NCBI GenBank assembly: GCA_031279695.1 | Contig: JAITIA010000140.1 | Span: 12,935-76,934, forward strand | DNA length: 64,000 bases | Source of the DNA: Prevotellaceae bacterium | Lineage (GTDB): Bacteria > Bacteroidota > Bacteroidia > Bacteroidales > UBA932 | Direction of reading: 5' to 3' | Part shown: positions 325 to 56,784 of the stretch, piece after piece | How the letters are laid out: every line of letters starts with the position of its first letter | Position numbering within the stretch: the first letter of the stretch is position 1 | Notes under the pieces: model-generated | Databases searched by the model: none | Told to the model about the DNA's origin: nothing | Seen by the model: only the letters and a program-made list of their open reading frames with translations | Made by a program: the position numbers and the translations under genes

Positions 325-3300
325 TTAGTTATTCTTCTTTACAATAAGGTTGCATGAGCCAATCAATCCAGACGCTTGCAGTTTCGATTCGCTCTTATAA
401 TGATTAACAACTGTACGTGTTATTCTCTGCTCGTTGGGCAAACGACTATCGCCAATAAGTTTGTTTGCCCAGCTATTTGCAACCTCAATTTCCAGCAGGT
501 TAGTTCCCTTTTTCAATGCTTTATCGATACGCAAACGATAGGGCGCAGTCCATAAATTGCCAATTGATTTGCCGTTTAACTTGACGCGGGCAACAACCAT
601 CACATTTTCAAGGTCGATATACGCCTGTTCGTTTGGCAGTTTATCTATATCGAATGTTGTTTCGTAAGTTGCTGTTCCTGAAAAATAGCGAATACGCTCG
701 TCGCTCGATTTCGACCAATCTTCAAGTTTATTAAATGTAACCGGCTCTTCCGGCGCTCCTCTGCCTTTTTCAAATGTTACTTTCCATGGATTCGACAGTG
801 TCAGTAGAGTTTCGTACTTTACTGAATGTTGTTTTGTTGATATGTTTTCGTTTGCCTTATTACGGAACACAACAAATACGCTGCCATTTGCAGGCAAATC
901 AATTTGCACTGCGGTGGTCTGTTCCGATGCTTTACTGTAAACAGCAGGACTTATTTCGCGTGTAACCGGATTCCACAGTTCAACAGCCCTGCCGGCAACA
1001 CGAAATTCAGGCGTGAAATTTACAGGCTTGTCGCTTTGATTAGTTACAAAATATATATCGCCATCCTTCAACCGTCGGTGGATGTGCAGCGCAGGTGTTT
1101 TAGGCGATGAGGCAAGGCTGAAATCGGGCGGCAGGTTGAGCGACGCAAACACTTCATCAAGCGACGCATCTGCTGAGAATACCTGTCCGCGACCAACTTT
1201 GCGCACTTTTTCATTGCCGTCAGCCCAGAGTTTCGACGCCAGCGCCGCAACTTCGCCGTCAGCCTTTGGATAATTGACTAAACTTGGCGAGCGTTTCGGC
1301 TGCTGACCAACGATGGTCAATCCTTCGTTAACAAAATTGCTAATTCGCTGTAATACTTCCGGACGCATAGTTTCTACCGGAGGCAAAACGAGAACGTTGT
1401 AATGCATTCCATCAGGTAAGGCAAGTTTGCCGTCCTGCATTGAAGCCCGCGTCATCAAAACCTCTGCGTTGATAAAATCGTATGAATATCCGTGCGGCAG
1501 TTCCGGTGAAGTTATACCGGTCATCTTCGGGGCGTCTTCGCCAATAAAGTAAGCAACGTCGGCAACATAGTTTCCCTCCTGCAACATCAAGTTGCAGCTG
1601 CGAAGATAGTCGGTAAATCCATTCATTTTTCCGAACCATGTATTCTTACGGTTAAATTCCATGCCGAACCATGCATTGATACCCGGATTCCAGTCCTCAT
1701 AAGCCTGATGCTGATAAGTGCTTAGCAGAGTGGCATTGATACCTTCAATAAACGACCTGTCTATGTCGATTTTAAGAGTGCCCGGGTATAACCAGAAATA
1801 TGGACCGCCGCTGGTACACGATTCCGCCCACGTTTTGCGCTTACCATATATATGTGCCGATGACGAGGCTGCGCGGTTTTCAACTCCACGTCCCCAGCTG
1901 CCCGTCCAAAATTCTCCGCTAACTTCGTCCGACTGACCGCCGTATTGTAGAAATTCGCCCGGATAGCCCCAATGCCCGTAATTCTGTAACCACAGTGTGA
2001 GTCCATGTTCATTTGCCACTTTCTTCAATCCGGCAACATACCCGTATGAAATCATGTCGGCAACAAGGCGGCGCAAATCCCAGAGAAACCTGTCCGACAG
2101 TTCGCGACTGCCAACCACATTACCGTCGAACACCGGAAAGTATGGCACAGGGCTGTATCCATAAGTTTTGGTAAACCGTTCAAGCATACCGTCTGTCCAG
2201 TTTTGACCTCCCGTTTCGTAACTGTCGGCAACAACAAGACGGAAAGTACGTCGGTCTTTGGCAGGAATACGTCGCAAAACTTCGCCAATAAAAGCGTCGA
2301 AATGGCTTGCAACATGCTTGCTGTTCATCTTGTCCACCTCCAAACCCTTTCCTTCGGGCGATGCAGGCGCATTGGTAACACCGGTTGTTATCATTGCCAC
2401 ACGCGAAACAGTCCACAGTCCTTCGGGAGCATCCCATTCAATAATGCCCTCAGCCGACATTTTGTCGGTCAAATCAATAACACGTTCAACAGGAATATAC
2501 ATTTCCTGTATGGCTTCGGGCTGCACATCCCACATATATGAATCCCACGATGGTATGGCGTCCTGAAACATCTTGCCAAGCACCTTTTCAGGGTAGCGTT
2601 CCATATATGGAACAGTACTCAGTGTTATATCAGCCTCGCCAGCGCCATTATCGCCAAGCCACAGACGGAAATCGGAAGACTGCGCTTCCGGTATTGCACC
2701 AACCACAGGAGCATGACGTATAAAGCCTACATTAGGGTTATGATTGGTGCGGTTAATCATCATCTTTTTGATACTTCTATACTCCGAGCCTTCTTTAACT
2801 AACAGTTCTGCCGTTGTCCACATCCTTGCTGCCGTTGAATATATAAAGCTGCGCACGGTAACAGGGCGCTCAAAGTGAAAATCGACGGTGAGCGATTTTC
2901 CCTGTTCTTTATTCACCTTGATTGTTTTTTCCGTAATTGCGTTTTGCGGCAAAACCGGATACGCCACTACACGGACGTCCTGCGCCTCATTACCCGGACT
3001 TGCAAGTTTGAGGCTTACATGCTTGCCGCCCTCAACCTGCGCCGACGAAGAAGCCAGCCGTCGCATACTCTGTTGCGGCTTAATCCACGGACCACCGGAC
3101 TGACTCCATCCGGGAGAATTAAACATACCAACTTCGATGTCGAGTTCCGAAGCCTTCTTCATGGCAGTATGCAGCGCCGCCCACCATTCGTCGGACAACA
3201 GTTTAACCTTCCCGTAAGGAACGCCTTCGCCGCCAATGTTTCCGATAAACACCGAGCCTATTCCTGCGGCTTTTATTGCTTCGAGGTCGCGTTCGATACC

Positions 3301-3471
3301 TTCCTGCGAAACATTGTCGGACATCCAATACCAGAACATCCTCAGTCGGACACTGTCGTCAGGGTTGCGGAAGCCGTCCGCCAGCCTGTCGAACTCCGAT
3401 TGCCGGCATCCGCCCGTGAATAAACACAGCGCTACCAGCGATAATAAAATTGAGATTTGTTTTTTACACAT
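325..3471 (-). CDS. Large secreted glycoside hydrolase lipoprotein (1048 aa). The C-terminal sugar-binding jelly-roll resembles GH2/GH106-type domains; family uncertain.
   Basis: Long ORF with lipoprotein signal peptide MCKKQISILLSLVALCLFTGGC. C-terminal motif VKLNGKSIGNLWTAPYRLRIDKALKKGTNLLEIEVANSW is typical of GH2-type sugar-binding domains. Co-directional with GH43 and the giant gene. Confidence 0.7.
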   Translation of the reverse strand: MCKKQISILLSLVALCLFTGGCRQSEFDRLADGFRNPDDSVRLRMFWYWMSDNVSQEGIERDLEAIKAAGIGSVFIGNIGGEGVPYGKVKLLSDEWWAALHTAMKKASELDIEVGMFNSPGWSQSGGPWIKPQQSMRRLASSSAQVEGGKHVSLKLASPGNEAQDVRVVAYPVLPQNAITEKTIKVNKEQGKSLTVDFHFERPVTVRSFIYSTAARMWTTAELLVKEGSEYRSIKKMMINRTNHNPNVGFIRHAPVVGAIPEAQSSDFRLWLGDNGAGEADITLSTVPYMERYPEKVLGKMFQDAIPSWDSYMWDVQPEAIQEMYIPVERVIDLTDKMSAEGIIEWDAPEGLWTVSRVAMITTGVTNAPASPEGKGLEVDKMNSKHVASHFDAFIGEVLRRIPAKDRRTFRLVVADSYETGGQNWTDGMLERFTKTYGYSPVPYFPVFDGNVVGSRELSDRFLWDLRRLVADMISYGYVAGLKKVANEHGLTLWLQNYGHWGYPGEFLQYGGQSDEVSGEFWTGSWGRGVENRAASSSAHIYGKRKTWAESCTSGGPYFWLYPGTLKIDIDRSFIEGINATLLSTYQHQAYEDWNPGINAWFGMEFNRKNTWFGKMNGFTDYLRSCNLMLQEGNYVADVAYFIGEDAPKMTGITSPELPHGYSYDFINAEVLMTRASMQDGKLALPDGMHYNVLVLPPVETMRPEVLQRISNFVNEGLTIVGQQPKRSPSLVNYPKADGEVAALASKLWADGNEKVRKVGRGQVFSADASLDEVFASLNLPPDFSLASSPKTPALHIHRRLKDGDIYFVTNQSDKPVNFTPEFRVAGRAVELWNPVTREISPAVYSKASEQTTAVQIDLPANGSVFVVFRNKANENISTKQHSVKYETLLTLSNPWKVTFEKGRGAPEEPVTFNKLEDWSKSSDERIRYFSGTATYETTFDIDKLPNEQAYIDLENVMVVARVKLNGKSIGNLWTAPYRLRIDKALKKGTNLLEIEVANSWANKLIGDSRLPNEQRITRTVVNHYKSESKLQASGLIGSCNLIVKKNN

Positions 3472-3556: not shown

Positions 3557-6500
3557 CTACTTTTTGTTGTCAGGTTTATGTGCTTTATATAAATTTTCCG
3601 TATCGACAATATGCCAGAAAAAATTCGTATCATATGCAACACGTTTTGCAAACTGTTCAGCCGCCATGTAAGCCATTTCCGCTTTATGTATAAACATAAT
3701 CTCCGACTTACGGGTATTTGTTTTATTTTGCAGTATTTGTTTCGCAGCCCTACGAGCTATCGTCCAGTTATGCTTCAACTGTTTCGCAGCCCTGCAAATA
3801 ACCGCCAAGTCATACCGAAAGCCATTCGTATTATTACGAATAGTTGTTGAATATAGCTTCAAGTAATTTGCAGCCTTACGCACATCAATAAAGTTGTGCA
3901 GAAACTGTGCCGCAAATTTACGAGCCTTTGGATTATCGCGCAGAAACTGTTTTGCAGCATTACGAACGTCTATCTCATCCTGCTGGAGGTATTCGGCAGA
4001 TTTACGAATCTTTGTCACATTAAGCAACTTTTGTCTCGCAATATTACTAATCTTAGTACTATAATATTCTTGATGAGATTCAAACTTGAGAGCCATTGCT
4101 TCGTTCTTTTCAAACTGTCGCACAAGTTGTAAAGCCTCATTTTGCTTTAGTTTTGCATGTTTTGTAGCACTGATAGCCTCTTCATGTTTATGCAGTAGTA
4201 TTTTAGAATAGAGAATAGTTTTCATTTTTTCTTTGGAGGCAACTATTAATCTCATGTTAGCCTTCTCAAGTTTATTATGAATGTTGTTTACAGATATGAT
4301 AATCTTCGACAGTTGTTGTATATATTCATTCGTAGCAATACGGAGCGTAAACATTTCTTGAAAAATTTCACACGTCAGCTCGTGAGCCTCCGCCTCATTC
4401 ATTTTCTTTTTATGCTGTGTTGTACCATCTTTCAACTTATCTTGAAAAACGCCAATGGTAATATGATTAACCTCTATTTCATTCTGCAGAATTTGTTGCG
4501 AACGGGCGAGAGTTATCTGCTCCTTATTTAACAGCGATTGCGCATGTTTGTTAGCCTTGTCGAGTTGCTGCATGGCATGTTCGGCGTCGATACTTATCCG
4601 CTTTTGTTTTGTTTTAACATTATCGACGTCCAATTCAGCAGTAATATTATTTTGCTGCGCCTGTTTATGAATGCTACTAATCTGTTTCTCGTATTGCTGC
4701 GCCTGTGAAAGCGCAATACGAGTCTGTTCCACGTAATGCTTTGCCTGTTCAAAAGCACTACAAGTTTCTGTCGATTGTTGCAAATTTTGATTTTCGGATA
4801 TGCTAATCGTCGGCAAGTTCAACTGATATTGTTTAATATCTGAATAAAACCTCTTTTTTACTTTAAGCACCTGTTTAACATCCATACATGTTTTCTCAAT
4901 ATTTTGCAGGTTTTGTTCCGCATTAATACTGTTCATCATACACATTAGCAGGTTTTGTTCCGCATTAATACGGTTGTCGGTACATTTATGAAATTTGTGC
5001 ATTGCTTCAATAAAAGCCTTTCCAATATGGTTTTTTAGTTTATTCACATTGTTGAAAGCAATTATCTCATCATTTTTAATTTGATTGGCAGTCGTGCGAG
5101 CCTTCTTCTCTTTAGTTTTATAATCTGCCAACTGTGTTATTGCTATCTGTTTTTTATGCATTAATGCTTTCAAATATTGACTAATATTATCTATATTTTG
5201 CTGCGCCTGTTCATCATCACTGTTAGTAATAAATTTATATAGATGCGGATTTTTTTCGTCAATGTCAGTCTCCGATTCATTCAGCTGCTGGGGCTCGGAC
5301 GCGACGTCAGTTTCCGGCTCATCCGGATGCTGCGGCTCGGCATCGTCGTCAGTTTCGGGTTCATTCTGCTGCTGCTGCTCGGCATCGTCGTTAATCTCCG
5401 ATTCATTCTGCTGTTGTGGCTCGGCATCGTCGTCAGTCTCCGATTCGTTCTGCTGCTGCGATTCGGCTGCGGCGTCAGTTTCCGACTCCTTTTGCTGCAG
5501 TTGTTTAGCCGAATTTTTAGTTTTTATTTTATTTTGCAGAGAATGGTTTTTATCGATACGAGCCTTTTCTGCCAATTGCAGTCTGTATTCAGCATCTATG
5601 GTATTATTCTCTGCATTTTGCAGATTAACTTCCGCATAAATACAATCGTGCGAACATTTTCTCAGTTCCCGTTCCGCATCAATACGAGCCTCAATACATT
5701 TTTGCAGTTTTTTAGTGGCTTTATCGAGATTTTTACCCCCATTCCGCTCTTCCATTACAACATCCATGCGAGCCTCCGCTTCATTATCTTTCAACTGTTT
5801 TGCGCGATTGCTTGCCTTTAATTCGTTTTGTTTAGCAACAAAAAGCTCAATGCGAGCCTTTTTTTCTACTCTCTTCGACCGTGCCACATTTGTTAGAATC
5901 TCTTTATGGTTATTCAGAAGATATTCGGTATCAGAGATATTCTCCGCCTCATTTTGCTGCGCTTGGGGTGCATCGGTACGAGTTTCCGCCTCATTTTGCT
6001 GCGCTTGGGGTGCATCGATACGAGTTTCCGCCTCATTTTGCTGCTTTTGGTCGTCATCGATACAAGTTTCCGCCTCATTTTGCTGTGCATGGTCGTCATC
6101 AATATGAGTTTCCGTCTCATTTTGCTGCACTTGGTCGTCATCGATACCGTCCTGCTCCAAGTTGTTATTTAGTTGTTCGATACCATATCTTTCCTTTTTC
6201 ATATATAGATGTATCGCAGATTTAAAATCCTGAGCCCGTATTTTATTTTTACGATAATGAGATATAAAGATTTCAATCTCTTCCAACGCCTTATTTGCCT
6301 TATTCGCAACCCTGTCAACCTTATCCATTCGTAGCTGCGCCTGTTCCACAACATAATTAGCCTCTTCTTCCTTATACTGCGCCTGTTGGGTAATAATGCA
6401 AGCGTCGGCAAAGTTGTTCAAAGCATGGTAAAAATCGGTGCGAGCATTTCTTATACATTGCCAAATATATTTAGTATTGATGCTGCTCTCCAATCCATAT

Positions 6501-9500
6501 TGCTTAATATATTGTGCAGTACGTACAGCCTCCAACAGGTTTTGCATTGAATTGATGGCAGCCATACGAGCATTTTGCTCGTTTTGCCGAGCGTCGTTGG
6601 CAAGAGCAATAGCCTGTTCATAGTTTTGCTGCGCCTGTTTTGCAAGGTTACGAATATTTGTTTCATTTTGCAGAATATCGTTCGTAAAACCGTCAATTTT
6701 AGTCTTATTCTGCATAATTTGTGACATATTTGCTATTCTTATCTTCCTGTTCATATCAAATTGTTTCTGATGTTTTCTTACCTTGTAAGTATTGATATTA
6801 CGTTGTTTCGCATCGATACCACCGTTAGTTTTAAGCATTAGATTAACTTCAGCAAACATACGTTCGTTCTCCTTGTTCAACTTATTAAGTTGAGTAGCAT
6901 AATCATCGTTCGATTTTTGCATCCAAGTCAGTTCGGTAAATATTCTAATGTTCGAGTCATTGATAAGTTCGAGTTTATACCCTATGATTTCCTCAATAGT
7001 ATTTTGCCGATACTGTTCTGCATCGATACGAGCCTGTGTTGCAATTTGCAGTTGCCGATTGGCGGCAATACAGTCCTGCTCGGTAATTAGCAGTTGCTGT
7101 TGCGCGTCGATACGAGCCTGCGTATATTCTTGCAGACGCGATTCGGCAATACCGACGTCTATATCCTCATCCTTTTTCTTTTGATTAAAAATATTTAAAG
7201 CGGCCTGCTCGTTGCGCTGCATATCCAAGATATGATTTAAAACATTCGATTTATTAATTTGCGCCTGTTCAGCAGCATTACGGGCTTCTGTCTCTATATG
7301 CAGAGCCTCATCAAAACTAAAGACAATTGTCAGATAGTTTTGTATAATGTGTTCGGTATTTTTGCTAATATAGATATGAGTTTGCTTAAACAGTTCGGTA
7401 TTTTTGTTAATGTCGAATATTTTTTGCAGGAAATGTTCGGCACTTATGCCAATCTCCGAATTTTGTTGCGATGACTGTTTTGCAGCAATTCCGGCTTTTT
7501 TCAATTGTTTTTTCTGCTCTTTTGCAGCAAGTTTAGTTTCCTGCACTTTTTGCTTTGTTTCTTTTACCTTAGTTAGCGCCTCCTGCACTTTTTGTTTTGT
7601 TTCGTCGGCAAGTATCCGCGCCTCCTTCACTTTTTGTTTTGTTTCGTCGGTAAGTATCCGCGCCTCTTTTATTTTTTGTTTCGACTCTTCGGCAAGTTTT
7701 TTTTCCTGATTATTCTTTTCGGCAAGTTCGGAAGTAAGGGTTTTTATCTCCGTATGTTTATTAACAATGTCCTGCGTAAGACTATTATCGACCGACTTGT
7801 TTTGCTTAACTGCGGATACAAGGCTGTTAAGCTCATTCTTTTTTTGCTTGATTTGTTGTTTCAGCGCTACAATCTCTTCATTTATTATCTGAATATCTTT
7901 GGAAGCACTACGAGCCTCCTTCATTTTTTGCGTAGCAAGTTCAGCTTCTAAGCGAGCCTTTTTTAAATTTTTCTTATCTTCATATTCCTTAATGAGAATA
8001 TCGTTCAATTCTTGCTGCGCCTGTTGCGCAATATTACAAGTCGGCGACTCTTGTTGCGGCGTCTGTTGAGCGGCGACAATAATCTCTGCCGCTTTTTGCA
8101 GATTTCGTTTAGCAATCATACGAGCCTGTTCCGCCCTTAGCAGCGGCTGTTCTTCATCTATACTGTCTTTTTCTTGTTGTTGCAAATCCTGTTCGACGGT
8201 AATGCTATCCTCTGGCTGTTGTTGCAAATCCTGTTCGACGGTAATACTATCCTCTGGCTGTTGTTGCAAATCCTGTTCGACGGTAATACTATCCTCTGGC
8301 TGTTGTTGCAAATCCTGTTCTACGGCAATGCTATCCTCTGGCTGTTGTTGCAAATCCTGTTCTACAGCAATACTATACTGTTCCTGTTGTTGCAGATTTT
8401 GTTCGATAGCCATACGCGCCTGTTTCGTTTGTTCTATTTGCTGTTCGGCGTCGCGACAAGCCTTTTTCGCTTCCAATAAATTCTGCATGGTAGCTTCACG
8501 ATACTCTTTCGATTGTTGCAGTCGCTGCTCCGCATCAACACGCAAGTCTTCCACATCTTTTAGATTCAGTAATTTCTGCATGAGTTTTCTTCCGCCGTCA
8601 TCCTTCGTTTGATTAGCAATATTACAGGCGTTCATTTCTTTATCATACATCTGTTTAAGCTGTGCGTGCATCTCATGATTTTTTTTACGGGCATATTCCG
8701 TAAGTATGCGCATCTTTGCTCTGTTTTGCATCGACTGTTCAACATCAATGTAATCCTGTTCTGCCTGTTGCAGGTTCTGTTTGGCAGCAATACTGTTCTG
8801 TTCTGCCTGTTGCAGGTTATCTTTGGCAGCAATACTGTTCTGTTCTGCCTGTTGCAGGTTATGTTTGGCAGCAATGATATCTTCTTTGCTGCTTTGCTTC
8901 ATTCGATTAACAGTATCGCAAGCCGTAATATATTTTGACTGAAAATGATTGTTCTCTGTTCGCGCATTGTTCTCGATGTGCATAGCACGTTCAACAAGTA
9001 TTCGAGCCTGTTCAATGTTTAAATTCGCCTGTTCCACAGCAATACTTGCCTCTTGCTCTTCTTGCTGTCGCATATTTGCAATTGTCAAATCAATGCTTGC
9101 TATTCGCATATTATGTTCGGCAATAATACGAGCCTCTTTAGCTCTTTCAAGTTTACGTTCAGCTTTAATACGCGCCTTTTCATTCTCTTTGAGCAACTGT
9201 ACGGCACGCATAATGTTTTCCGGTCTGGTTCCCTGCACTCGATTAAGAGCATTGCGAGCCTCTATCTCTTTATTTTTTGTCAGTTCAAGATTCGTTTGTC
9301 TATACTGCTCTCTTTGCTTAGCCTTTTCCACAAGTTGGCGAGCCTGTTCAATGTTTAGCTTCGCCTGTTCAACAGTAATACATATATCATCAATTTTTTG
9401 CTGATATTGTTTAACTTCGCCACGTGCCTTAGCCTCCTGTTTAAGTTTCTGTTCGGCAGCAAGACGAGCCTCTTCTTTTTGTTTTAGTTTCTGTTCGGAA

Positions 9501-12500
9501 GCAAGACGAGCGTCTTCCAACTCTTGCGGATTTTGCGCAGTAGCATTACGAGCGTCTTCCAACTCTTGCGGATTTTGTGCGGTAGCATTACGGGCGTCTT
9601 CCAACTCTTGCAGATTTTGTGCGGTAGCATTACGAGCGTCTTCCAACTCTTGCAGATTTTGTGCCGTAGCATTACGAGCGTCTTCCAACTCTTGCAGATT
9701 TTGCCCCGTAGCATTACGAGCGTCTTCCAACTCTTGCGGATTTTGTGTGGCAGCAATACGAGCCTCTTTCAACTTTTGCGAATTTTGTGCGGCAGCAATA
9801 CGAGCCTCTTTTAACTCTTGCAGATTTTGTTCGGAAGCAATACGGTCATTTTCCGCCAACTGAAGTTTCTGTTCGGAAGCGATAAATGCTTCTCTAACTT
9901 GTTTAAGGCGCTGTTCGGCAGCGATACGCTCTTCTCCCTCCTGTGTTAGACAGTGTTCGGAAGCGATACGCACGTCTTCTTTTAGTTTCACATACTCTTT
10001 GGCAGCAGCACGTACTGCTTTCTCGTATTTTATGTTCTGTTCGGAAGCGATACGCTTTTTCTCCGCTTGTTCCCGCTGTTGTTCTGCTACGATACGTTCC
10101 TCTTCCGCTTCTATGAGATTTTGTTCGGCAGCAATATGTTCTTCTTTCGCTTTTTGCAGATTTTGTTCGGCAACGATACGTTCCTCTGTAATTTTTTGCA
10201 AATCCTGTTTTGCAATAATACAAAAGGCTTCTGCTTCTTTAAGGTTTTTTTCAGCATCAAGATTTACTGTTAGATTTTTTGTCAGGGACTGGTTATACTC
10301 TATGCGAGCTTTATTCACGTTTTGCTTAGCTTGTTTAAATTCTGTGCGAGCCTTTTCCTCTTGTTGCAGTTTCAGTTCAACAGCGCCACGAGCCTTTTTC
10401 GCTTGTTTTAATTTCAGTTCAACAGCGCTGCGAGCCTTTTTCTCCTGTTTCAGTTTCAGTTTAACAGCACTACCATTCATATCTTCTATTTGTAGATTTT
10501 GCCCCGTAGCAATACGCTCTTTTTCTTTTTGTTTGAGATACTGTTCGGCAATAATACTCGCCTCTTCTTTCAGTTTGAGATACTGTTCGGTAGCTATGCG
10601 TTTTTTATCTTTGTTTTGTAGAGAATGTTCGGTAGCGATACGTTCTTCTTCTATTTGTTTGAGCTGCTGTTCGGCAGTAATGCGTTCTTCTTTCAGTTGT
10701 TTGAGATGCTGTTCGGCAACGCTACGAGCCGCTTCCACTTTTTGCAGATTTTGTTCGGCAACGCTACGAGCCTCTTCCGCTTTTTGCAGATTTTGTTTGG
10801 CAATGCTACTAACCTCTTTTAACTTTTGTAGATTTTGTTGGGCAACAATACGCTCCGCTTCCACTTTTTGCAGATTTTGTACCGCAGCGATACTCTCCTC
10901 TTTCGCTATTTGCAGTTCTTGTTCAACAGCGATACGCATATCTTTCTCTATTTGCAGCCTTTGTTTAGCAGTCAAATAAACTACTCTATTTTTTTTCGGA
11001 GACTGTTTACTCTTTATGTCAGCCTTATTTTCTGTTTCATTAAACTGTTTATACTTTAGTCCGGCTTGATTCTCTTTTTGCTGAGCATTTTTTACGTCTG
11101 TACGAGCCTTTTTTTCTTCTTCGAGCTTTAGCCCTAATTTTCTACGAGCCTTTCTTCCTTCTACGAGTTTTGATTTTAATTCACTACGAGCCTTTGATTC
11201 TTCTTTTAGTATTGATTTTAATTCACTACGAGCCTTTGATTCTTCTTCGAGTTTTAGTTTAACAATACTGCTATTTACTTCTTCTTTATGCAGATTTTGT
11301 TTGGCAAGGATACGAGCCTCTTTTAACTTTTGCAGATTTTGTGTGGCAAGGATACAAGCCTCTTTTAACTTTTGCAGATTTTGTGTGGCAATGCTACAAG
11401 CCTCTTCCGCTGTTTGCAGTTGCTGTTCGGCAGCAATACGCATCGCTTCCGACATTTGCAATTTCTTTTCCACAATCATACGAGCATAGTCCGTTTTATT
11501 TTGTGCCTGATTAAGATTTATTTGCATATCCTTCTCACTTTGCGTAGTGTTTTCTACAAGACGGCGAGCCTGTTCAACTATTATCGTCTGATATTCGAGC
11601 GCAATGCGAGCCTCTTTAATTTTTTGCAGATTTTGTTTGTAAATCGTGCGAGCCTCTTCTGCTTTTTGTTTTTCCAGTTCGTCGGCAATACGGGCATTTT
11701 CTTCTTCTTGCTGACGCTGTTCGACGGTAATACGAGCCTCTTCCCATTGTTGCATAGACTGTTCAGCAGCAATACGCGCCTGTTCAAAATTTTGCTGCGC
11801 CTGTTTGGTAGCAATACAAGCATTTTCAAGTTCTTGTTGAGCCTGTTCGCTTTTAGTGCAAGCCTTCGAATGTTTTTTCTCCGCATATTGCAGAGCAGAT
11901 CTAACCTTTAGTTTATTGTGTTTAGCGTCTGCATTCTCTTGTACATACTGCTCGTTGTTTTGCTTTTGCCGATGCAACAGGTTACTATTCTCTTCCAACT
12001 GTTGCAGAATTTCTTTTGCAAGTATGCTGTTCTCTCCCTCTTCCTGCACAACTCTTTGCGCACGATTGCGGCACTCCTCCTCTTTTTGCTGCAATTGTAC
12101 GGCAAGCATTCGTCCCTCGTTCATTGTTTTAGCCGTCTCTTCAACACGATTAGCCGCCTCCTGCAATTTTTGCTGAGCCTGTATAAGTTGAATACGAGCC
12201 TGCTCCTTATATTGCTGCAATTGATTAGCCGTATCAATAGCCTTTAACTCATCTTGCTGACACTTATTAAGACTGTTACTAAGTTCCTCCTTATTCTGAT
12301 TACAATTAACAAGAGTCATACGGGCATTTTCCACTTCTTGCTGACGTTGTTCGGCATCAATACGGGCATTGTCTTCTTCTTGCTGACGCTGTTCGGCATC
12401 AATACGGGCATTGTCTTCTTCTTTTCGACGCTGTTTGGCAGCAATACGTGCCTTTTCTTCTTCTTGCTGACGCTGTTCGGCAGCAATACGTGCCTTTTCT

Positions 12501-14104
12501 TCTTCTTTTCGACGCTGTTTGGCAGCAATACGTGCCTTTTCTTCTTCTTGCTGACGCTGTTTGGCAGCAATACGTGCCTTTTCTTCTTCTTGCTGACGCT
12601 GTTCGGCAGCAATACGTGCCTTTTCTTCTTCTTGTTTCTCTATTTTGGTGGCAATACGTATGTCATCAACTTTTTGTCGGGTCTGTTCGGCAATAATACG
12701 AGCCTCTTCCCATTTTTGTCGAGTCTGTTCAGCAGCAATACGAGCCTGGTCATAATTTTTATGCGCCTGTTTCTCAACAATATTATTCTGTTCCCATTGT
12801 TGCTGCGCCCGTTTGGTAGCACTACGAGCCTTTTCTAATTCTTGTTTCGCCTGTTCGCTTTTAGTGCAAGCCTTCGCATAGTTTTTTTCTAAATATTGCA
12901 CAGCGGATCTGATTTTTGTTCTATTGTGTTTAGCGTCTGCATTCTCCTGTGCATACTGCTCATTGTTTTGCGTATGCTGATGCAAAAGATTACTAATCTC
13001 TTCCAACTGTTGCAGAATTTCTTTTGCAAGTATGCTGTCCTCTCCCTCTTCCTGTATAACTCTTTGCGCACGATTGCGGCACTCCTCCTCTTTTTGCTGC
13101 AATTGTACCACAAGCATACGTTCCTCGTTCATTGGTTTATCCGTCTCTTTAACACGATTAACAGCATCCTGCAATTTTTGCTTCAGCTGTGTAAGATTAA
13201 TACGAGTCTGCTCCTTGTGTTGCTGAGATAGATTAACAGTATCAATAGCCTTTAACTCATCTTGCTTACACTGATTAAGACTGTTGCTAAGTTTCGCCTT
13301 ATTTTGACTACACTTTACAAGAGCAGTACGGGCATTTGCCGCTGCTTTTTGTCGTTGTTCGGCAATAATACGCGCCTTTTCTGCTTCTTTTTGTCGTTGT
13401 TCGGCAGCAATACGCACTTTTTCCACTGCTTGCTGCCTCTGTTCGGCAGCAATACGCGCCTCTTTATCTTTTTTATATTTCTGTTCGGCAGCAATACGCG
13501 CCTCTTCTTTTTTTGTCAGTTTCTGTTCGGCAACAATATTAGTTTTTTTCGACTGTTGCGTACTTTGTTCGGCAACAATGTTAGTTTTTTTCGACTGTTG
13601 CTGACGTTGTTCGGCAACAATACTATCAATTTCTGCTTGTTGCTGACGTTGTTCGGCAACAATACTATCAACTTCTGTTTGTTGCATACTTTGTTCGGTA
13701 GCAATACTATCAACTTCTGCTTGTTGCGTACTTTGTTCGGCAACAATACTATCAACTTCTGCTTGTTGCGTACTTTGTTCTGCAACAATACTATCAACTT
13801 CTGCTTGTTGCGTACTTTGTTCTGCAACAATACTATCAACTTCTGTTTGTTGCGTACTTTGTTCGGCAACAATACTATCAACTTCTGCTTGTTGCATACT
13901 TTGTTCGGCAACAATACTATCAACTTCTGCTTGTTGCGTACTTTGTTCAGCAACAATATTTATCTCTTCCTGTTCTTTGAGTTGTTGCTCCGACTCAATA
14001 CGAATAGATTCATTATTATGCTGCAGCGAATTGTCATTTTTTGTTTCTTTCCTAAAAATATTATTCCAGAAACCACGCTTACTACTTATTTTTATAAACT
14101 TCAT
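3557..14104 (-). CDS. Giant (3515 aa) tandem-repeat coiled-coil protein made of about 250 degenerate 14-residue repeats (consensus ARIAAEQxLQxxEE). No signal peptide or TM segment. Function unknown.
   Basis: Uninterrupted 10,548-nt ORF. Translation is dominated by A/E/Q/R/K/I/L with hydrophobic residues spaced i, i+7 (two heptads per 14-mer). The N-terminus MKFIKISSKRGFWNNIFRKE is polar. Start codon lies 4 nt after the GH43 stop. Opposite-strand ORFs are repeat artefacts. Confidence 0.85.
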   Translation of the reverse strand: MKFIKISSKRGFWNNIFRKETKNDNSLQHNNESIRIESEQQLKEQEEINIVAEQSTQQAEVDSIVAEQSMQQAEVDSIVAEQSTQQTEVDSIVAEQSTQQAEVDSIVAEQSTQQAEVDSIVAEQSTQQAEVDSIATEQSMQQTEVDSIVAEQRQQQAEIDSIVAEQRQQQSKKTNIVAEQSTQQSKKTNIVAEQKLTKKEEARIAAEQKYKKDKEARIAAEQRQQAVEKVRIAAEQRQKEAEKARIIAEQRQKAAANARTALVKCSQNKAKLSNSLNQCKQDELKAIDTVNLSQQHKEQTRINLTQLKQKLQDAVNRVKETDKPMNEERMLVVQLQQKEEECRNRAQRVIQEEGEDSILAKEILQQLEEISNLLHQHTQNNEQYAQENADAKHNRTKIRSAVQYLEKNYAKACTKSEQAKQELEKARSATKRAQQQWEQNNIVEKQAHKNYDQARIAAEQTRQKWEEARIIAEQTRQKVDDIRIATKIEKQEEEKARIAAEQRQQEEEKARIAAKQRQQEEEKARIAAKQRRKEEEKARIAAEQRQQEEEKARIAAKQRRKEEDNARIDAEQRQQEEDNARIDAEQRQQEVENARMTLVNCNQNKEELSNSLNKCQQDELKAIDTANQLQQYKEQARIQLIQAQQKLQEAANRVEETAKTMNEGRMLAVQLQQKEEECRNRAQRVVQEEGENSILAKEILQQLEENSNLLHRQKQNNEQYVQENADAKHNKLKVRSALQYAEKKHSKACTKSEQAQQELENACIATKQAQQNFEQARIAAEQSMQQWEEARITVEQRQQEEENARIADELEKQKAEEARTIYKQNLQKIKEARIALEYQTIIVEQARRLVENTTQSEKDMQINLNQAQNKTDYARMIVEKKLQMSEAMRIAAEQQLQTAEEACSIATQNLQKLKEACILATQNLQKLKEARILAKQNLHKEEVNSSIVKLKLEEESKARSELKSILKEESKARSELKSKLVEGRKARRKLGLKLEEEKKARTDVKNAQQKENQAGLKYKQFNETENKADIKSKQSPKKNRVVYLTAKQRLQIEKDMRIAVEQELQIAKEESIAAVQNLQKVEAERIVAQQNLQKLKEVSSIAKQNLQKAEEARSVAEQNLQKVEAARSVAEQHLKQLKEERITAEQQLKQIEEERIATEHSLQNKDKKRIATEQYLKLKEEASIIAEQYLKQKEKERIATGQNLQIEDMNGSAVKLKLKQEKKARSAVELKLKQAKKARGAVELKLQQEEKARTEFKQAKQNVNKARIEYNQSLTKNLTVNLDAEKNLKEAEAFCIIAKQDLQKITEERIVAEQNLQKAKEEHIAAEQNLIEAEEERIVAEQQREQAEKKRIASEQNIKYEKAVRAAAKEYVKLKEDVRIASEHCLTQEGEERIAAEQRLKQVREAFIASEQKLQLAENDRIASEQNLQELKEARIAAAQNSQKLKEARIAATQNPQELEDARNATGQNLQELEDARNATAQNLQELEDARNATAQNLQELEDARNATAQNPQELEDARNATAQNPQELEDARLASEQKLKQKEEARLAAEQKLKQEAKARGEVKQYQQKIDDICITVEQAKLNIEQARQLVEKAKQREQYRQTNLELTKNKEIEARNALNRVQGTRPENIMRAVQLLKENEKARIKAERKLERAKEARIIAEHNMRIASIDLTIANMRQQEEQEASIAVEQANLNIEQARILVERAMHIENNARTENNHFQSKYITACDTVNRMKQSSKEDIIAAKHNLQQAEQNSIAAKDNLQQAEQNSIAAKQNLQQAEQDYIDVEQSMQNRAKMRILTEYARKKNHEMHAQLKQMYDKEMNACNIANQTKDDGGRKLMQKLLNLKDVEDLRVDAEQRLQQSKEYREATMQNLLEAKKACRDAEQQIEQTKQARMAIEQNLQQQEQYSIAVEQDLQQQPEDSIAVEQDLQQQPEDSITVEQDLQQQPEDSITVEQDLQQQPEDSITVEQDLQQQEKDSIDEEQPLLRAEQARMIAKRNLQKAAEIIVAAQQTPQQESPTCNIAQQAQQELNDILIKEYEDKKNLKKARLEAELATQKMKEARSASKDIQIINEEIVALKQQIKQKKNELNSLVSAVKQNKSVDNSLTQDIVNKHTEIKTLTSELAEKNNQEKKLAEESKQKIKEARILTDETKQKVKEARILADETKQKVQEALTKVKETKQKVQETKLAAKEQKKQLKKAGIAAKQSSQQNSEIGISAEHFLQKIFDINKNTELFKQTHIYISKNTEHIIQNYLTIVFSFDEALHIETEARNAAEQAQINKSNVLNHILDMQRNEQAALNIFNQKKKDEDIDVGIAESRLQEYTQARIDAQQQLLITEQDCIAANRQLQIATQARIDAEQYRQNTIEEIIGYKLELINDSNIRIFTELTWMQKSNDDYATQLNKLNKENERMFAEVNLMLKTNGGIDAKQRNINTYKVRKHQKQFDMNRKIRIANMSQIMQNKTKIDGFTNDILQNETNIRNLAKQAQQNYEQAIALANDARQNEQNARMAAINSMQNLLEAVRTAQYIKQYGLESSINTKYIWQCIRNARTDFYHALNNFADACIITQQAQYKEEEANYVVEQAQLRMDKVDRVANKANKALEEIEIFISHYRKNKIRAQDFKSAIHLYMKKERYGIEQLNNNLEQDGIDDDQVQQNETETHIDDDHAQQNEAETCIDDDQKQQNEAETRIDAPQAQQNEAETRTDAPQAQQNEAENISDTEYLLNNHKEILTNVARSKRVEKKARIELFVAKQNELKASNRAKQLKDNEAEARMDVVMEERNGGKNLDKATKKLQKCIEARIDAERELRKCSHDCIYAEVNLQNAENNTIDAEYRLQLAEKARIDKNHSLQNKIKTKNSAKQLQQKESETDAAAESQQQNESETDDDAEPQQQNESEINDDAEQQQQNEPETDDDAEPQHPDEPETDVASEPQQLNESETDIDEKNPHLYKFITNSDDEQAQQNIDNISQYLKALMHKKQIAITQLADYKTKEKKARTTANQIKNDEIIAFNNVNKLKNHIGKAFIEAMHKFHKCTDNRINAEQNLLMCMMNSINAEQNLQNIEKTCMDVKQVLKVKKRFYSDIKQYQLNLPTISISENQNLQQSTETCSAFEQAKHYVEQTRIALSQAQQYEKQISSIHKQAQQNNITAELDVDNVKTKQKRISIDAEHAMQQLDKANKHAQSLLNKEQITLARSQQILQNEIEVNHITIGVFQDKLKDGTTQHKKKMNEAEAHELTCEIFQEMFTLRIATNEYIQQLSKIIISVNNIHNKLEKANMRLIVASKEKMKTILYSKILLHKHEEAISATKHAKLKQNEALQLVRQFEKNEAMALKFESHQEYYSTKISNIARQKLLNVTKIRKSAEYLQQDEIDVRNAAKQFLRDNPKARKFAAQFLHNFIDVRKAANYLKLYSTTIRNNTNGFRYDLAVICRAAKQLKHNWTIARRAAKQILQNKTNTRKSEIMFIHKAEMAYMAAEQFAKRVAYDTNFFWHIVDTENLYKAHKPDNKK

Positions 14105-14108
14105 ATTT

Positions 14109-15134
14109 CTATTTAATCTTCCGACGTTTTACGCCGGTTTTAGTTATCTTGACTGGAATAATTCGTCCATTTTCATCAAACTCCATCCTGTCGATACATG
14201 TTACACGATGATTGCCATGTCGGTCGCCAATCGGTCGGCGATGATATACTATATAATATGTATCGGTATCGGGCAGGTGAATAACAGAATGATGTCCTGC
14301 GCCTGTGGCGACAGCAGAGTCCTGTTGCAGTATTTTTCCCTCCCGATGAAATGGACCATAAGGTGAATCGGCAATTGCGTATGCAACAGAATAGTCGGGA
14401 CCTGTCCAACCACCCTCGCTCCACATAAAATAGTACTTGCCATTACGCTTAAACATAAAAGGACCTTCGACATAGTTTTGTGGAGTAATTTCCTTATATA
14501 TAGAGCCGTCATCGTGAGGTATCAGCCCGTCGAACTTGTCGTTCAGTCGTACAATATTGCAATGACTCCAACCGCCATAATACATATAATAATTGCCGTC
14601 GTCGTCGAGAAACACAAACTGGTCGATAGGTTGTGCGCCATTCACAATATTGTTGATAAGAGGTTTACCGAGCAAATCACGGTATCGTCCCTGCGGCTTG
14701 TCGGCAATTGCAACGCCTATACCGCCAACTTCGCCCTCATGCACATCGTTGGCAGCAAAGAAGAGATAGTACTTGTTGTTTTTGCGTATAACAGAAGGCG
14801 CCCACATCGCCATACGAGCCCATCGAACCTCAGTGGTGTCGATAATCCGTTCGTGTTTTTGCCACTGCACCAAGTCGGGCGATGAAAAGCAGTCGAAAAA
14901 TACCTGTTTTTCAAAATTGTCGCTAAATGTTGGAAAAATCCAGTAATTTTTGTCATATATTATACCCTCAGGGTCGGCATACCAGCCGTTGAAAACCGGA
15001 TTTCCACTGAAAGGAGCGGTTTTTGTTGCTGTACAGGATGCGAGGAGCGCCGCTGCTGCAACTGTTACTGTAAATGCTGTAAATCTGCTGTTTATGCAGT
15101 CTAAATTCAATTTACAAATGTTAAAAATCTTCAT
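14109..15134 (-). CDS. Glycoside hydrolase family 43 (beta-xylosidase/arabinofuranosidase-like), lipoprotein
   Basis: Signal peptide with lipobox (LLASCTA). Canonical GH43 N-terminal motif NPVFNGWYADPEGIIYDKNYWIFPT and five-bladed propeller-like W/D-rich sequence. Confidence 0.85.
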   Translation of the reverse strand: MKIFNICKLNLDCINSRFTAFTVTVAAAALLASCTATKTAPFSGNPVFNGWYADPEGIIYDKNYWIFPTFSDNFEKQVFFDCFSSPDLVQWQKHERIIDTTEVRWARMAMWAPSVIRKNNKYYLFFAANDVHEGEVGGIGVAIADKPQGRYRDLLGKPLINNIVNGAQPIDQFVFLDDDGNYYMYYGGWSHCNIVRLNDKFDGLIPHDDGSIYKEITPQNYVEGPFMFKRNGKYYFMWSEGGWTGPDYSVAYAIADSPYGPFHREGKILQQDSAVATGAGHHSVIHLPDTDTYYIVYHRRPIGDRHGNHRVTCIDRMEFDENGRIIPVKITKTGVKRRKIK

Positions 15135-15241
15135 ATTTTTCGTAAAATTTACTAATTATTTGCCGACAAAGATATGGAGAATTTTGAATATGACAAAAAT
15201 GCTGTTATTTGGTACTTTATATGGTATTCATAAAAAATATG

Positions 15242-53796: not shown

Positions 53797-53831
53797 ACAA
53801 GTAAATATAAAATAATTAAATATTTATAAAC

Positions 53832-54566: not shown

Positions 54567-54610
54567 ATTATTATTATTATTATTTACAAACAAATAAAAT
54601 TATTATTTTT

Positions 54611-55791: not shown

Positions 55792-56017
55792 TGGCAAAAA
55801 ATCCTGCCCTTTACCGTCCAAAAATCTCAGTTCAATCCGAAAATCGAAGCAAAAAATTCGCATGATCTGCAAAAAAATGCATCTGAAATACTATTGATTT
55901 TCAGCGAAATTAAAAAAAATATTTTTTTGTTCAAAAAATTTTTGTACCTTTGTGCTTGTGATTTATCTGAGATATAACAGATAATTAATTGAATAATAAG
56001 ATTTAAACGTAAATAAA
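55792..56017 (+). repeat. Copy B of the intergenic repeat family, with promoter TTTG...TACCTTTG (55944-55951) and a 65-bp extension shared with copy C
   Basis: Aligns with copies A and C. The extension tgatttatctgagatataacagataattaattgaataataagatttaaacgtaaataaatgg is identical in B and C. Confidence 0.85.
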
Positions 56018-56059
56018 TGGTTAGTATAATAAAAATAAAAATAAAAAATATAATACAAG

Positions 56060-56691: not shown

Positions 56692-56784
56692 ATTTATGCT
56701 ACGCCCGCTGTTCGGACAAGGTTATACTTTGTTTGCACTATCCACTCAGGCACAGCCTCGTCCGAACAGCAGTTTTCGGGCAGT

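What the first reader, a model, noticed from the sequence alone, without database searches (positions are those of the whole stretch)
3557..14104. Giant 3515-aa protein built from about 250 degenerate 14-residue coiled-coil repeats, with no signal peptide
A single uninterrupted 10.5-kb ORF encodes a protein that is almost entirely low-complexity alpha-helical repeat. The consensus is ARIAAEQxLQxxEE, with Ile/Leu spaced i, i+7, so it is two heptads per unit. There is no signal peptide, TM segment or recognisable globular domain. The N-terminus (SKRGFWNNIFRK) could be a short amphipathic membrane-targeting helix. A continuous coiled coil of this length would be roughly 0.5 micrometre long, comparable to a cell. 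That points to an intracellular filament or ruler-like protein of the CCRP, crescentin or FilP type, or an extreme surface fibril using a non-classical route. I know of no characterised family with this 14-mer.
Basis: seen in the sequence. Interest (0 to 1): 0.85.

Follow-up and report, generated by a model that had tools for sequence, protein, structure and literature searches.

The report
Giant all-repeat helical rod protein
An uncultured Bacteroidales bacterium carries a real 10.5-kb gene whose 407-kDa product is 250 copies of a 14-residue helical unit with no register shift, most likely a very long cytoplasmic coiled-coil fibre; no relative was found in public data and its function is unknown.

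Summary
The ORF (window 3557-14104, minus strand, 3515 aa) is real. It has no internal stop, against about 234 expected from base composition. Both ends match independent Logan contigs at 100%. The longest exact internal repeat is 81 nt, so the length is not an assembly artefact.

After a 33-residue leader, the whole protein is one array of 14-residue units (A-R-I-A-A-E-Q-x-L-Q-x-x-E-E). This includes the "non-repeat" C-terminus. No register-shifting indel was detected.

Hydrophobicity is periodic at exactly 3.5 and 14 residues, which is coiled-coil geometry. Ile3 and Leu9 are i+6/i+8 apart, not i+7. Ile3 lies on a second conserved stripe, opposite the Ala-rich a/d seam.

There is no signal peptide, TM segment, LPxTG or secretion domain, and no Pfam, NCBIfam, PHROG, PADLOC or PDB match. 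No homologue appeared among 1.84 billion representative proteins, only short arrays (about 350 aa or less per protein, one with 618 aa in several blocks) of similar 13-15-mers in unrelated proteins.

The gene sits 4 nt after a GH43 lipoprotein gene and 85 nt before a GH106 lipoprotein gene, probably in one transcript.

Best reading: a selectively maintained orphan cytoplasmic fibrous protein, grown by 42-nt minisatellite expansion. Its function is inferred, not shown.

The parts
3557..14104 (-). Complete giant ORF: 3515 aa, 406.6 kDa, pI 6.3.
   Evidence: No internal stop, against about 234 expected.
14006..14104 (-). Non-repeat leader, aa 1-33 (MKFIKISSKRGFWNNIFRKETKNDNSLQHNNES). It is basic and has no hydrophobic core.
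3590..14005 (-). Uninterrupted array of 248 in-register 14-residue units (aa 34-3505), consensus A-R-I-A-A-E-Q-x-L-Q-x-x-E-E.
13544..13963 (-). Young sub-array DSIVAEQSTQQAEV x10 (aa 48-187). It contains the longest exact repeat in the gene (81 nt). The Logan contig L090 ends just after the start of this array.
12746..13333 (-). 196-aa (14-unit) diverged block, copy 1 (aa 258-453).
12326..12745 (-). Sub-array ARIAAEQRQQEEEK x10 (aa 454-593). It is the most highly charged segment: E+K+R reaches 56% in a 70-aa window.
11738..12325 (-). 196-aa block, copy 2 (aa 594-789). It lies 336 aa (24 units) after copy 1. The copies are 69% identical in amino acids and 82% in nucleotides, with dN/dS 0.67.
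9428..10981 (-). Canonical xRIxAEQNLQKxKE region (aa 1042-1559). AlphaFold2 models aa 1042-1461 as helices of 65-150 residues with mean pLDDT 75.
8168..8377 (-). Sub-array DSIxVEQDLQQQPE x5 (aa 1910-1979), with Pro at position 13.
5942..6151 (-). Acidic sub-array TxIDDDQxQQNEAE x5 (aa 2652-2721). It is a probable flexible joint. The Logan contig L091 ends here.
5270..5479 (-). Acidic, Pro-containing sub-array TDDDAEPQQQNESE x5 (aa 2876-2945). It is a probable flexible joint.
3590..7495 (-). Oldest and most diverged third (aa 2204-3505). Nucleotide identity between adjacent units is about 0.4, against an out-of-register baseline of 0.31. The units are still in phase.
14109..15134 (-). Upstream GH43 gene with a lipoprotein signal peptide. 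Its stop codon lies 4 nt before the giant gene's ATG. It equals NCBI MDR2424437.1.
325..3471 (-). Downstream GH106 alpha-L-rhamnosidase gene with a lipoprotein signal peptide, 85 nt after the giant gene's stop. It equals NCBI MDR2424435.1.
15167..15174 (-). Bacteroidetes-type -7 promoter motif TATCTTTG, about 33 nt before the GH43 ATG. It is the only such minus-strand motif upstream of the giant gene before GH43 ends. This is a consensus match only.

Best explanation
The ORF is a genuine gene kept open by selection. It belongs to an uncultured Bacteroidales bacterium, deposited at NCBI as 'MAG: Prevotellaceae bacterium'.

The product has a 33-residue leader followed by 248 consecutive 14-residue units, with no detectable register shift up to the C-terminus. 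It has no export or anchoring signal, so it stays in the cytoplasm.

The chain forms long alpha-helices. Their hydrophobic periodicity is exactly 3.5 residues, which is the geometry of a left-handed coiled coil. The small, Ala-rich stripe (positions 1, 5, 8 and 12, equivalent to d, a, d, a) is the seam for homo-oligomerisation. A second conserved stripe lies on the opposite face (Ile3, Gln7, Gln10, Glu14) and recurs every 14 residues, about 2.1 nm. It would let rods pack side by side into bundles or fibres.

Rare Gly/Pro sites and two acidic Pro-containing arrays act as joints. The molecule is therefore a segmented fibre with a contour length of up to about 0.5 micrometre: a structural scaffold or spacer inside the cell.

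The gene grew by in-register duplication of 42-nt units and of larger blocks of up to 1008 nt. It is probably transcribed together with the flanking GH43 and GH106 genes.

Shown: the ORF, the register, the periodicity, the absence of export signals and the absence of homologues. Inferred: the coiled coil, the oligomeric state, lateral bundling and the scaffold role.
For: The gene is real:
- No internal stop, against about 234 expected. There are 1628 one-step mutational paths to a stop codon, so about 76 new stops would be expected at the divergence seen between the internal block copies.
- dN/dS between paralogous units and blocks is 0.5-0.67.
- Logan contigs from SRR14710902 match the first 186 nt and the last 2416 nt at 100%.
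- The longest exact internal repeat is 81 nt, and only 20 of 249 adjacent unit pairs are at least 90% identical.

The register is kept:
- The phase is the same in 50 of 50 blocks and in 18 of 18 five-unit blocks in the most diverged third.
- The consensus is the same in all four quarters of the protein.

Helix and coiled-coil geometry:
- Hydropathy power is 996 at period 3.5 and 963 at period 14, against about 10 in shuffles. It is only 27 at period 3.6 and 1-3 at period 3.67.
- Positions 1, 5, 8 and 12 are hydrophobic or Ala in 40-78% of units along the whole length, against 1-29% for the seven polar positions.
- AlphaFold2 gives helices of 65-150 residues with pLDDT about 85 in the canonical region, and an all-helix model for the C-terminus at low confidence.

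Second face: positions 2, 3, 7 and 10 are among the most informative. In a 3.5-residue frame, positions 3, 7, 10 and 14 lie opposite positions 1, 5, 8 and 12.

Cytoplasmic location: no signal peptide, TM segment or LPxTG, and no Por_Secre_tail or other domain. Both neighbouring genes have clear lipoprotein signals.
Against: - No homologue exists to show conservation across species. The target itself also appears to be missing from the protein collection, so the searches may have blind spots.
- dN/dS of 0.5-0.67 is only a weak constraint.
- Codon use differs from the neighbours: GC3 is 0.36, against 0.43-0.59.
- The a/d seam is weak, being mostly Ala and often polar at position 12.
- The strongest hydrophobic residue, Ile3, sits at a nominal f position. 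That is atypical for a simple two-stranded coiled coil.
- No covariation between core positions was found that would fix a pairing geometry.
- There is no evidence of expression.
- No established coiled-coil predictor or multimer model could be run.
Confidence: 0.45

Rival explanations
1. A runaway minisatellite ORF with little or no function of its own. A 42-nt unit expanded between two glycosidase genes. The frame is kept open mainly because a premature stop in a 10.5-kb co-transcribed ORF would uncouple translation from transcription and silence GH106 downstream (polarity). On this reading the protein is a tolerated by-product.
For: - It is an orphan with no relatives.
- It is embedded between GH43 (4-nt gap) and GH106 (85-nt gap), with no Bacteroidetes -7 motif of its own.
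- dN/dS is 0.5-0.67, and substitutions fall almost evenly across the three codon positions.
- Codon use is deviant.
- Young, nearly identical sub-arrays show that expansion is ongoing.
Against: - Selection for an open frame alone would tolerate 3-nt indels, yet no register shift is seen, even in the about 1300 aa whose units have diverged almost to background.
- Position-specific residues (R2, I3, A5, Q7, Q10) stay the commonest in all four quarters.
- The 3.5-residue hydrophobic pattern persists throughout.
- Making a 407-kDa by-product would be costly.
Confidence: 0.2
2. A single, non-oligomeric helix or largely flexible chain. It would act as an entropic spacer or tether in the manner of a single-alpha-helix (SAH) domain, with no coiled-coil partner.
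For: - AlphaFold2 models isolated long helices.
- Short arrays of the same unit appear to act as linkers between domains in other proteins.
- The a/d seam is weak and Ala-rich.
Against: - E+K+R is only 28% overall and at most 56% locally, which from my own knowledge is well below the ER/K-type SAH domains.
- The periodicity is exactly 3.5 residues, not 3.6.
- A lone helix puts no constraint on register, yet the register is strictly kept.
- There are no terminal domains for it to space apart.
Confidence: 0.12
3. A surface or extracellular fibril exported by a non-classical route. It would act with the co-transcribed glycosidases, for example as a glycan-binding or enzyme-displaying stalk.
For: - It appears to share an operon with two exported lipoprotein glycosidases.
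- Coiled-coil domains of IF-like proteins have been reported to bind cellulose (PMC6224456 abstract).
- A relative of the unit forms a stalk in a signal-peptide-bearing S8 peptidase, P0043.
Against: - It has no signal peptide, lipobox, TM segment, T9SS C-terminal domain or LPxTG.
- No cohesin-, dockerin- or CBM-like domain is present.
- No SusC/SusD genes lie nearby.
Confidence: 0.1
4. An assembly artefact: collapse, expansion or chimeric joining of a repeat.
For: - It comes from a metagenome-assembled contig.
- Logan contigs break at two nearly identical sub-arrays.
- Copy number inside the seven sub-arrays of 89-96% identity (about 15% of the gene) could be off by a few units.
Against: - The longest exact repeat is 81 nt, and most units are only 40-70% identical to their neighbours, so they assemble uniquely.
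- Both ends were reproduced independently at 100% identity.
- A chimera would not keep one reading frame and one 14-aa phase over 10.5 kb.
Confidence: 0.03

Closest known systems
Bacterial intermediate-filament-like / coiled-coil-rich proteins (crescentin, FilP, Scy)
   Same: They are cytoplasmic and have no enzymatic domain. They have a long heptad-type alpha-helical rod. Function comes from self-assembly through longitudinal and lateral contacts between coiled-coil dimers (PMC10873595).
   Different: - Their rods are about 300-430 residues (Scy about 1300, from my own knowledge), against about 3480 here.
- They have head and tail segments and a stutter. Here there is no stutter and no register break at all.
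- Scy and FilP use a 51-residue repeat (my own knowledge). Here the period is 14.
- There is no sequence similarity to any PDB chain.
Short 13-15-residue helical spacer arrays with an ARI/LAAEQ core, in uncharacterised proteins (P0009, P0083, P0049, P0043, P0032, L082, L083)
   Same: The unit is nearly the same, for example AARLAAEQKAKEEE, ARIAAEQKAKADEE and AVARIAAEQQAAAE. It is often exactly 14 residues.
   Different: - Those arrays have about 4-25 units (about 350 aa or less).
- They link recognisable modules: a membrane anchor, zinc ribbons, an S8 peptidase, DnaJ or a Uma2-like nuclease.
- They occur in unrelated lineages, so they are probably convergent low-complexity helices.
- Here the array is 250 units and is the whole protein.
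Streptococcal M proteins (M6 has 14-residue A repeats; my own knowledge)
   Same: They are fibrous dimeric coiled coils built partly from 14-residue (two-heptad) tandem repeats. They have non-ideal cores and evolve by gain and loss of units.
   Different: M proteins are surface fibrils of about 50-60 nm in Gram-positive bacteria, with a signal peptide and an LPxTG anchor. Neither is present here.
Mycoplasma pneumoniae HMW2 (my own knowledge)
   Same: It is a very large cytoplasmic coiled-coil protein (about 1800 aa) that forms part of an internal cytoskeleton-like core.
   Different: It is not a single uniform tandem array, it comes from a different phylum, and no similarity was detected.
Giant bacterial genes surveyed by West-Roberts et al. 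(bioRxiv 10.1101/2023.11.21.568195)
   Same: It is an exceptionally long bacterial ORF recovered from metagenomes, and fragmentation during assembly is a concern.
   Different: The abstract of that study reports that all full-length giant genes there encode numerous transmembrane regions, and that they carry domains for attachment and carbohydrate degradation. This protein has no TM segment and no domain.

Membership tests
IF-like proteins (crescentin type) | A heptad-based coiled-coil rod. | tested here: met
   Hydropathy power is 996 at period 3.5, against about 10 in shuffles. AlphaFold2 models long helices. Only the periodicity was tested, not coiled-coil formation.
IF-like proteins (crescentin type) | A stutter (a four-residue heptad discontinuity) in the rod (PMC10873595). 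| tested here: not met
   No lasting phase shift is seen over 3480 aa.
IF-like proteins (crescentin type) | A head-rod-tail layout with a rod of about 300-430 residues. | tested here: not met
   There is a 33-aa leader, then 248 units running to the last 10 residues.
IF-like proteins (crescentin type) | Cofactor-free self-assembly into filaments. | not testable with these tools
   This needs purified protein with EM, or in vivo imaging.
Scy/FilP class | A 51-residue coiled-coil repeat (my own knowledge: Walshaw et al. 2010). | tested here: not met
   TRF reports essentially only periods of 42, 84 and 126 nt and none at 153 nt. The protein period is 14.
Single-alpha-helix (ER/K) domains | A very high content of E, K and R, with dense i,i+4 salt bridges (my own knowledge). 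| tested here: not met
   E+K+R is 28% overall and at most 56% in a 70-aa window. There are 6.3 opposite-charge i,i+4 pairs per 100 aa.
11-mer amphipathic lipid-binding repeats (apolipoprotein, perilipin, LEA, synuclein type) | An 11-residue unit, that is 3.67-residue periodicity. | tested here: not met
   Power at periods 3.67 and 11 is at background: 1-3 and 14.5, against about 10 in shuffles.
Surface fibrils and adhesins (M-protein-like, T9SS cargo) | An N-terminal signal peptide plus a sorting signal (LPxTG or the Por_Secre_tail C-terminal domain). | tested here: not met
   There is no hydrophobic N-terminus or TM segment, no LPxTG, and no Pfam or NCBIfam hit.
Phage tape-measure proteins | A tail-module gene context, and membership of a PHROG tape-measure family. 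| tested here: not met
   There is no PHROG hit and no phage tblastn hit. The neighbours are glycosidases, miaB and the ribosomal protein operon.
Anti-phage defence systems (PADLOC) | A match to a model of a defence-system component. | tested here: not met
   No family matched.
ARI/LAAEQ-type helical spacer arrays (uncharacterised, probably convergent) | The unit consensus xARI/LAAEQ...EE with a period of 13-15 residues. | tested here: met
ARI/LAAEQ-type helical spacer arrays (uncharacterised, probably convergent) | A short array that links other functional domains. | tested here: not met
   There are 250 units and no other domain.

The most novel reading that the evidence does not exclude
A register-locked coiled-coil polymer of about half a micrometre that forms a new kind of bacterial cytoskeletal or ruler element. 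Two opposite heptad stripes, one an Ala-rich seam and the other the Ile3/Gln7/Gln10 face, would let rods associate laterally at any multiple of 2.1 nm. That would explain why not one residue of register has been lost over 3480 aa. The gene would have arisen within this lineage by minisatellite expansion inside a glycosidase operon, which would make it a traceable case of a structural gene being born.
Probability: 0.15. Interest if true: 0.8.

Novelty: new variant of a known kind. Interest (0 to 1): 0.5.

Why it matters
If the protein is made and does assemble, it would be one of the longest uniform coiled-coil arrays predicted in any organism, and an unusual cytoskeletal candidate in Bacteroidales, from which I know of few (my own knowledge).

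Its construction is unusual. It has one unit and one phase, with no terminal domains. That makes it a clean natural test of how heptad register and a second surface stripe direct higher-order assembly. It is also a case where the growth of a giant gene from a 42-nt seed can be read directly from nested duplications.

If instead it is a tolerated by-product kept open by operon polarity, it would show how large orphan ORFs can persist in bacteria without a function of their own.

Tried and rejected
Searches that found nothing or failed:
- A whole-protein search of the 5.8-billion-protein index timed out.
- The C-terminal 556 aa found nothing there.
- The exact sequence is not on record, although both neighbours are (MDR2424435.1 and MDR2424437.1). 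The giant is therefore presumably MDR2424436.1 but is missing from the collection. This limits what "no homologue" means.
- No relatives appeared in GTDB species genomes, JGI metagenomes, IMG/VR, phage records or plasmid records.
- tblastn against the 80 Bacteroidales miaB loci gave no hit. There is no paralogue elsewhere in the window.

Synteny:
- A relative with 92% identical MiaB exists, but its contigs end in non-coding repeats just upstream of miaB.
- Relatives with 72-76% identical MiaB or GH43 have different neighbours.
- No "empty site" between GH43 and GH106 could therefore be found.

Structure:
- A Foldseek search of the AlphaFold2 model against the PDB gave only generic long helices, with E of 0.5 or more.
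- A test for compensating side-chain size or hydropathy between core positions, meant to distinguish in-register, staggered and antiparallel pairing, gave no usable signal.

Ideas considered and dropped:
- The top phmmer hits (P0001-P0008 and similar) are 14-residue beta-type repeats (TKTFTIDGIVLA...). They share the period only, not the fold type.
- Literature searches for the sample identifiers and for a described 14-residue family found nothing relevant.
- A DNA-level role for the 42-bp (four helical turns) periodicity was considered. It is treated as a by-product of the 3.5-residue pattern.
Full report
**Observation**

The window holds one ORF at 3557..14104 on the minus strand, 3515 aa long, starting with ATG. 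It has no internal stop. Base composition predicts about 234 stops in 3515 codons, and the other five frames of the same DNA carry 65-348.

Tandem Repeats Finder reports 31 rows whose periods are 42, 84 or 126 nt, apart from two weak rows at 21/22 nt. Every spacing between direct-repeat copies is a multiple of 42.

Written in rows of 14 residues from residue 6, the protein gives 250 units. Composition is Q 12.8%, E 12.2%, A 11.5%, K 10.4%, with only 0.7% Pro and 0.9% Gly. The product is 406.6 kDa with pI 6.3.

**The register is the striking feature**

A position matrix was trained only on 27 canonical units from the first 600 residues. It picks the same phase as best in all 50 blocks of 98 residues between aa 600 and 3450.

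A matrix trained on aa below 2000 was applied to the most diverged part (aa 2203-3500). It calls phase 0 in:
- 72 of 92 single units
- 40 of 46 two-unit blocks
- 27 of 30 three-unit blocks
- 18 of 18 five-unit blocks

Shuffled sequence gives phase 0 in 7% of blocks.

After the 33-residue leader there is no globular domain and no lasting insertion or deletion that shifts the 14-residue phase, not even by seven residues.

**Not an assembly artefact**

- The longest exact repeat inside the gene is 81 nt.
- Only 20 of 249 adjacent unit pairs are at least 90% identical, and 169 are below 60%.
- Two contigs assembled independently from run SRR14710902 (Logan) match the window at 100%. One covers rpsJ-miaB-GH43 and the first 186 nt of the gene. 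The other covers the last 2416 nt, GH106 and beyond.
- Those contigs stop exactly at nearly identical sub-arrays, as expected for short k-mers. Copy number inside those sub-arrays (about 15% of the gene) could be off by a few units. The overall size cannot.

**Source**

The neighbouring proteins are in NCBI as MDR2424437.1 (GH43) and MDR2424435.1 (GH106). Both come from a 76,934-nt contig of 'MAG: Prevotellaceae bacterium', which is also held in JGI/IMG. The giant is presumably MDR2424436.1, but its sequence is absent from the protein collections available here.

The rest of the window is an ordinary Bacteroidales chromosome. It contains the S10/spc ribosomal operon, secY, pheS, and thioredoxin-like proteins with the DUF4369 and DUF5106 domains. 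MiaB is 92% identical to ENA metagenome proteins and at most 77% identical to anything else.

**Selection**

The gene has 1628 single-step mutational paths to a stop codon.

A 14-unit block is duplicated 336 aa (24 units) downstream. Compared over 210 aa (aa 258-467 against aa 594-803), the copies are 82% identical in nucleotides, with dS 0.28. At that divergence about 76 new stops would be expected gene-wide under neutrality, and none is seen.

dN/dS is 0.67 for the block pair. For adjacent units of three identity classes it is 0.50-0.63. The constraint on individual residues is therefore weak but real.

The stronger argument is the register. In the oldest third, adjacent units are about 40% identical in nucleotides, against a 31% out-of-register baseline, so they have changed at roughly every site. 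From general indel-to-substitution ratios (an inference, not measured here), such DNA should have collected many in-frame 3- or 6-nt indels if only an open frame were required. No lasting shift is present. Something selects on the 14-residue periodicity of the protein.

**Structure**

Hydropathy power peaks at exactly 3.5 residues (996) and at 14 residues (963), against about 10 in shuffles. It is near background at 3.6 (27) and at background at 3.67 (1-3). That pattern fits a left-handed coiled coil. It does not fit a free helix or an 11/3-type surface-lying amphipathic helix.

The hydrophobic or small positions are 1, 5, 8 and 12, spaced 4-3-4-3, which corresponds to d-a-d-a. They are mostly Ala at positions 1 and 5 and variable at 8 and 12, where the aromatic residues concentrate.

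Ile is at position 3 and Leu at position 9, so they are i+6/i+8 apart. In the 3.5-residue frame Ile3 falls at a nominal f position and Leu9 at e.

Ile3, Gln7, Gln10 and Glu14 form a second 4-3-4-3 stripe, roughly opposite the Ala seam. Positions 2, 3, 7 and 10 are among the most informative in the unit. A helix with two opposite conserved stripes suggests two interfaces: pairing within a coiled coil, and side-by-side packing of coiled coils. This is inference.

AlphaFold2 without an alignment models aa 1042-1461 as helices of 150, 67, 100 and 65 residues, broken at Gly- or Asn-rich sites. Mean pLDDT is 75 and pTM is 0.23. The C-terminal 556 aa are modelled as all helix at low confidence, with pLDDT 47. 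Foldseek finds only generic helices.

With 25 Pro and 32 Gly, the longest stretch free of both is 312 residues. The 517-nm figure is therefore a contour length for a jointed chain, not the length of a rigid rod. Two acidic arrays containing Pro (aa 2652-2721 and 2876-2945) are the likeliest hinges.

**Location**

There is no hydrophobic N-terminus. The highest 19-residue Kyte-Doolittle mean is 0.74, where TM segments need about 1.6. There is no LPxTG and no T9SS or other domain. The leader is not notably amphipathic.

By contrast, GH43 (…LLASC) and GH106 (…LFTGGC) carry lipoprotein signals. The protein is therefore most simply cytoplasmic.

**Context**

The GH43 stop codon lies 4 nt before the giant's ATG. 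The giant's stop lies 85 nt before the GH106 ATG.

The Bacteroidetes -7 motif TAnnTTTG occurs on the minus strand 33 nt before GH43, and on the plus strand before miaB. It does not occur on the minus strand within GH43, nor in the spacer before GH106. The three genes probably form one transcript, though this rests on consensus matches only.

Relatives with 72-92% identical MiaB or GH43 have different neighbours, or contigs that end there. Neither an orthologue nor an empty site could be found.

**Relatives**

No family matches in Pfam, NCBIfam, PHROGs or PADLOC, and no PDB sequence matches.

A phmmer search with aa 1-1200 against 1.84 billion representatives gave no hit below E = 1e-30. The best was 95 bits over about 115 residues.

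The 150 best hits fall into two groups:
- Proteins with 14-residue beta-type repeats, which match in period only.
- 28 proteins with helical arrays of period 13-15 or 28. The repeat span per protein is about 350 aa or less, except for one protein with 618 aa in several blocks.

Several of these share the ARI/LAAEQ core. P0009 and P0083 combine a membrane anchor, AARLAAEQKAKEEE units and a Ca-binding tail. P0049 combines the array with zinc ribbons. P0043 combines a signal peptide, about 25 units and an S8 peptidase.

A DNA pattern for two ARIAAEQ motifs 14 codons apart found three metagenome loci. Each has 4-7 units in an unrelated protein.

The unit is therefore a recurrent, probably convergent helical spacer motif. 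What is new here is that it makes up the entire protein, 250 times, in one phase.

**Mechanism, and how likely it is**

I put about 0.75 on [quoted passage not shown]. I put about 0.45 on the fuller model, in which homo-oligomeric coiled-coil segments bundle laterally through the Ile3/Gln stripe into a scaffold or fibre.

The main rival (0.2) is a largely functionless minisatellite ORF kept open because a stop codon would be polar on GH106. It explains the orphan status, the weak dN/dS and the odd codon usage (GC3 0.36, against 0.43-0.59). It does not explain the absence of small in-frame indels or the persistent position-specific pattern.

Lower-ranked rivals are a lone-helix spacer (0.12), a non-classically exported fibril acting with the glycosidases (0.1) and an assembly artefact (0.03).

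**Comparison with known kinds**

Functionally, the protein most resembles bacterial IF-like or coiled-coil-rich proteins. It is not a member of the crescentin/FilP/Scy kind on tested features. It has no stutter, no head-rod-tail layout, a different period, a rod about ten times longer and no sequence similarity.

It differs from M-protein-like fibrils, which have a signal peptide and LPxTG. It differs from ER/K single helices: E+K+R is 28% here. It differs from 11-mer lipid-binding repeats and from tape-measure proteins. It also differs from the giant genes surveyed by West-Roberts et al., which are rich in TM regions and domains.

**Verdict**

The finding is real and unusual in scale and regularity. 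It is an orphan from a metagenome-assembled genome with no evidence of expression, and its function is only inferred. I classify it as a new variant of a known kind, the long bacterial coiled-coil protein. Interest is 0.5.

Noticed in passing
window 63404-63482 (-): An Rfam group II intron hit (RF00029, 54 bits, above the gathering score). It lies next to a DUF4143/AAA_14 ATPase ORF at 62100-63221.
   Followed up: no
window 56001-58000: A sharp GC dip to 29.5%, against about 42% for the window. It may be a foreign island.
   Followed up: no
window 3557-14104: AA/TT dinucleotides are periodic at 10.5 nt (power 12, against 0.13 in a control region) and at 42 nt. The 42-bp unit equals four DNA helical turns. 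This is probably a by-product of the 3.5-residue protein periodicity, but it could make the DNA intrinsically curved.
   Followed up: partly
L084:1-408, L085:1-450, L086:1-290: Three contigs of an 88%-identical relative (ENA WAID19-1 samples) all end 300-450 nt upstream of miaB. The DNA there is non-coding and has short tandem repeats of the GTTATAAAGTTGTTATAAGGTT type. It is unrelated to the window's GH43 side.
   Followed up: partly
P0001-P0004, P0006, P0008, P0010, P0012, P0013 (one search hits): A large set of proteins carries long arrays of 14-residue beta-type repeats (TKTFTIDGIVLA and similar), often next to lectin- or LamG-like regions. They matched the DSIVAEQSTQQAEV array in period only.
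   Followed up: no
P0009, P0083, P0049, P0043, P0032; L082:1-1600; L083 (- strand ORF): Short helical arrays with an ARI/LAAEQ core and a period of 13-15 residues recur as linkers or tails in unrelated proteins. Examples are a membrane anchor with a Ca-binding tail, zinc ribbons, an S8 peptidase, a DnaJ protein and a Uma2-like nuclease.
   Followed up: partly
L091:5765-14736 (beyond the window start): Downstream of GH106 the source contig continues with DUF6261, a second GH106 paralogue (76% nucleotide identity to the first) and SbcD/SbcC.
   Followed up: no
window 52642-55696 (+): An ORF with an SPFH/Band-7 domain fused to a GYF_2 domain (52642-53796) lies near a 361-aa ORF with an N-terminal Mu Com-like zinc ribbon (54611-55696).
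   Followed up: no
window 3557-14104 versus its neighbours: The giant gene's codon use differs from the flanking genes. GC3 is 0.36, against 0.43-0.59, and it prefers GCT, CGT and ATT. This fits a founder effect from the seed unit, but a foreign origin is not excluded.
   Followed up: partly
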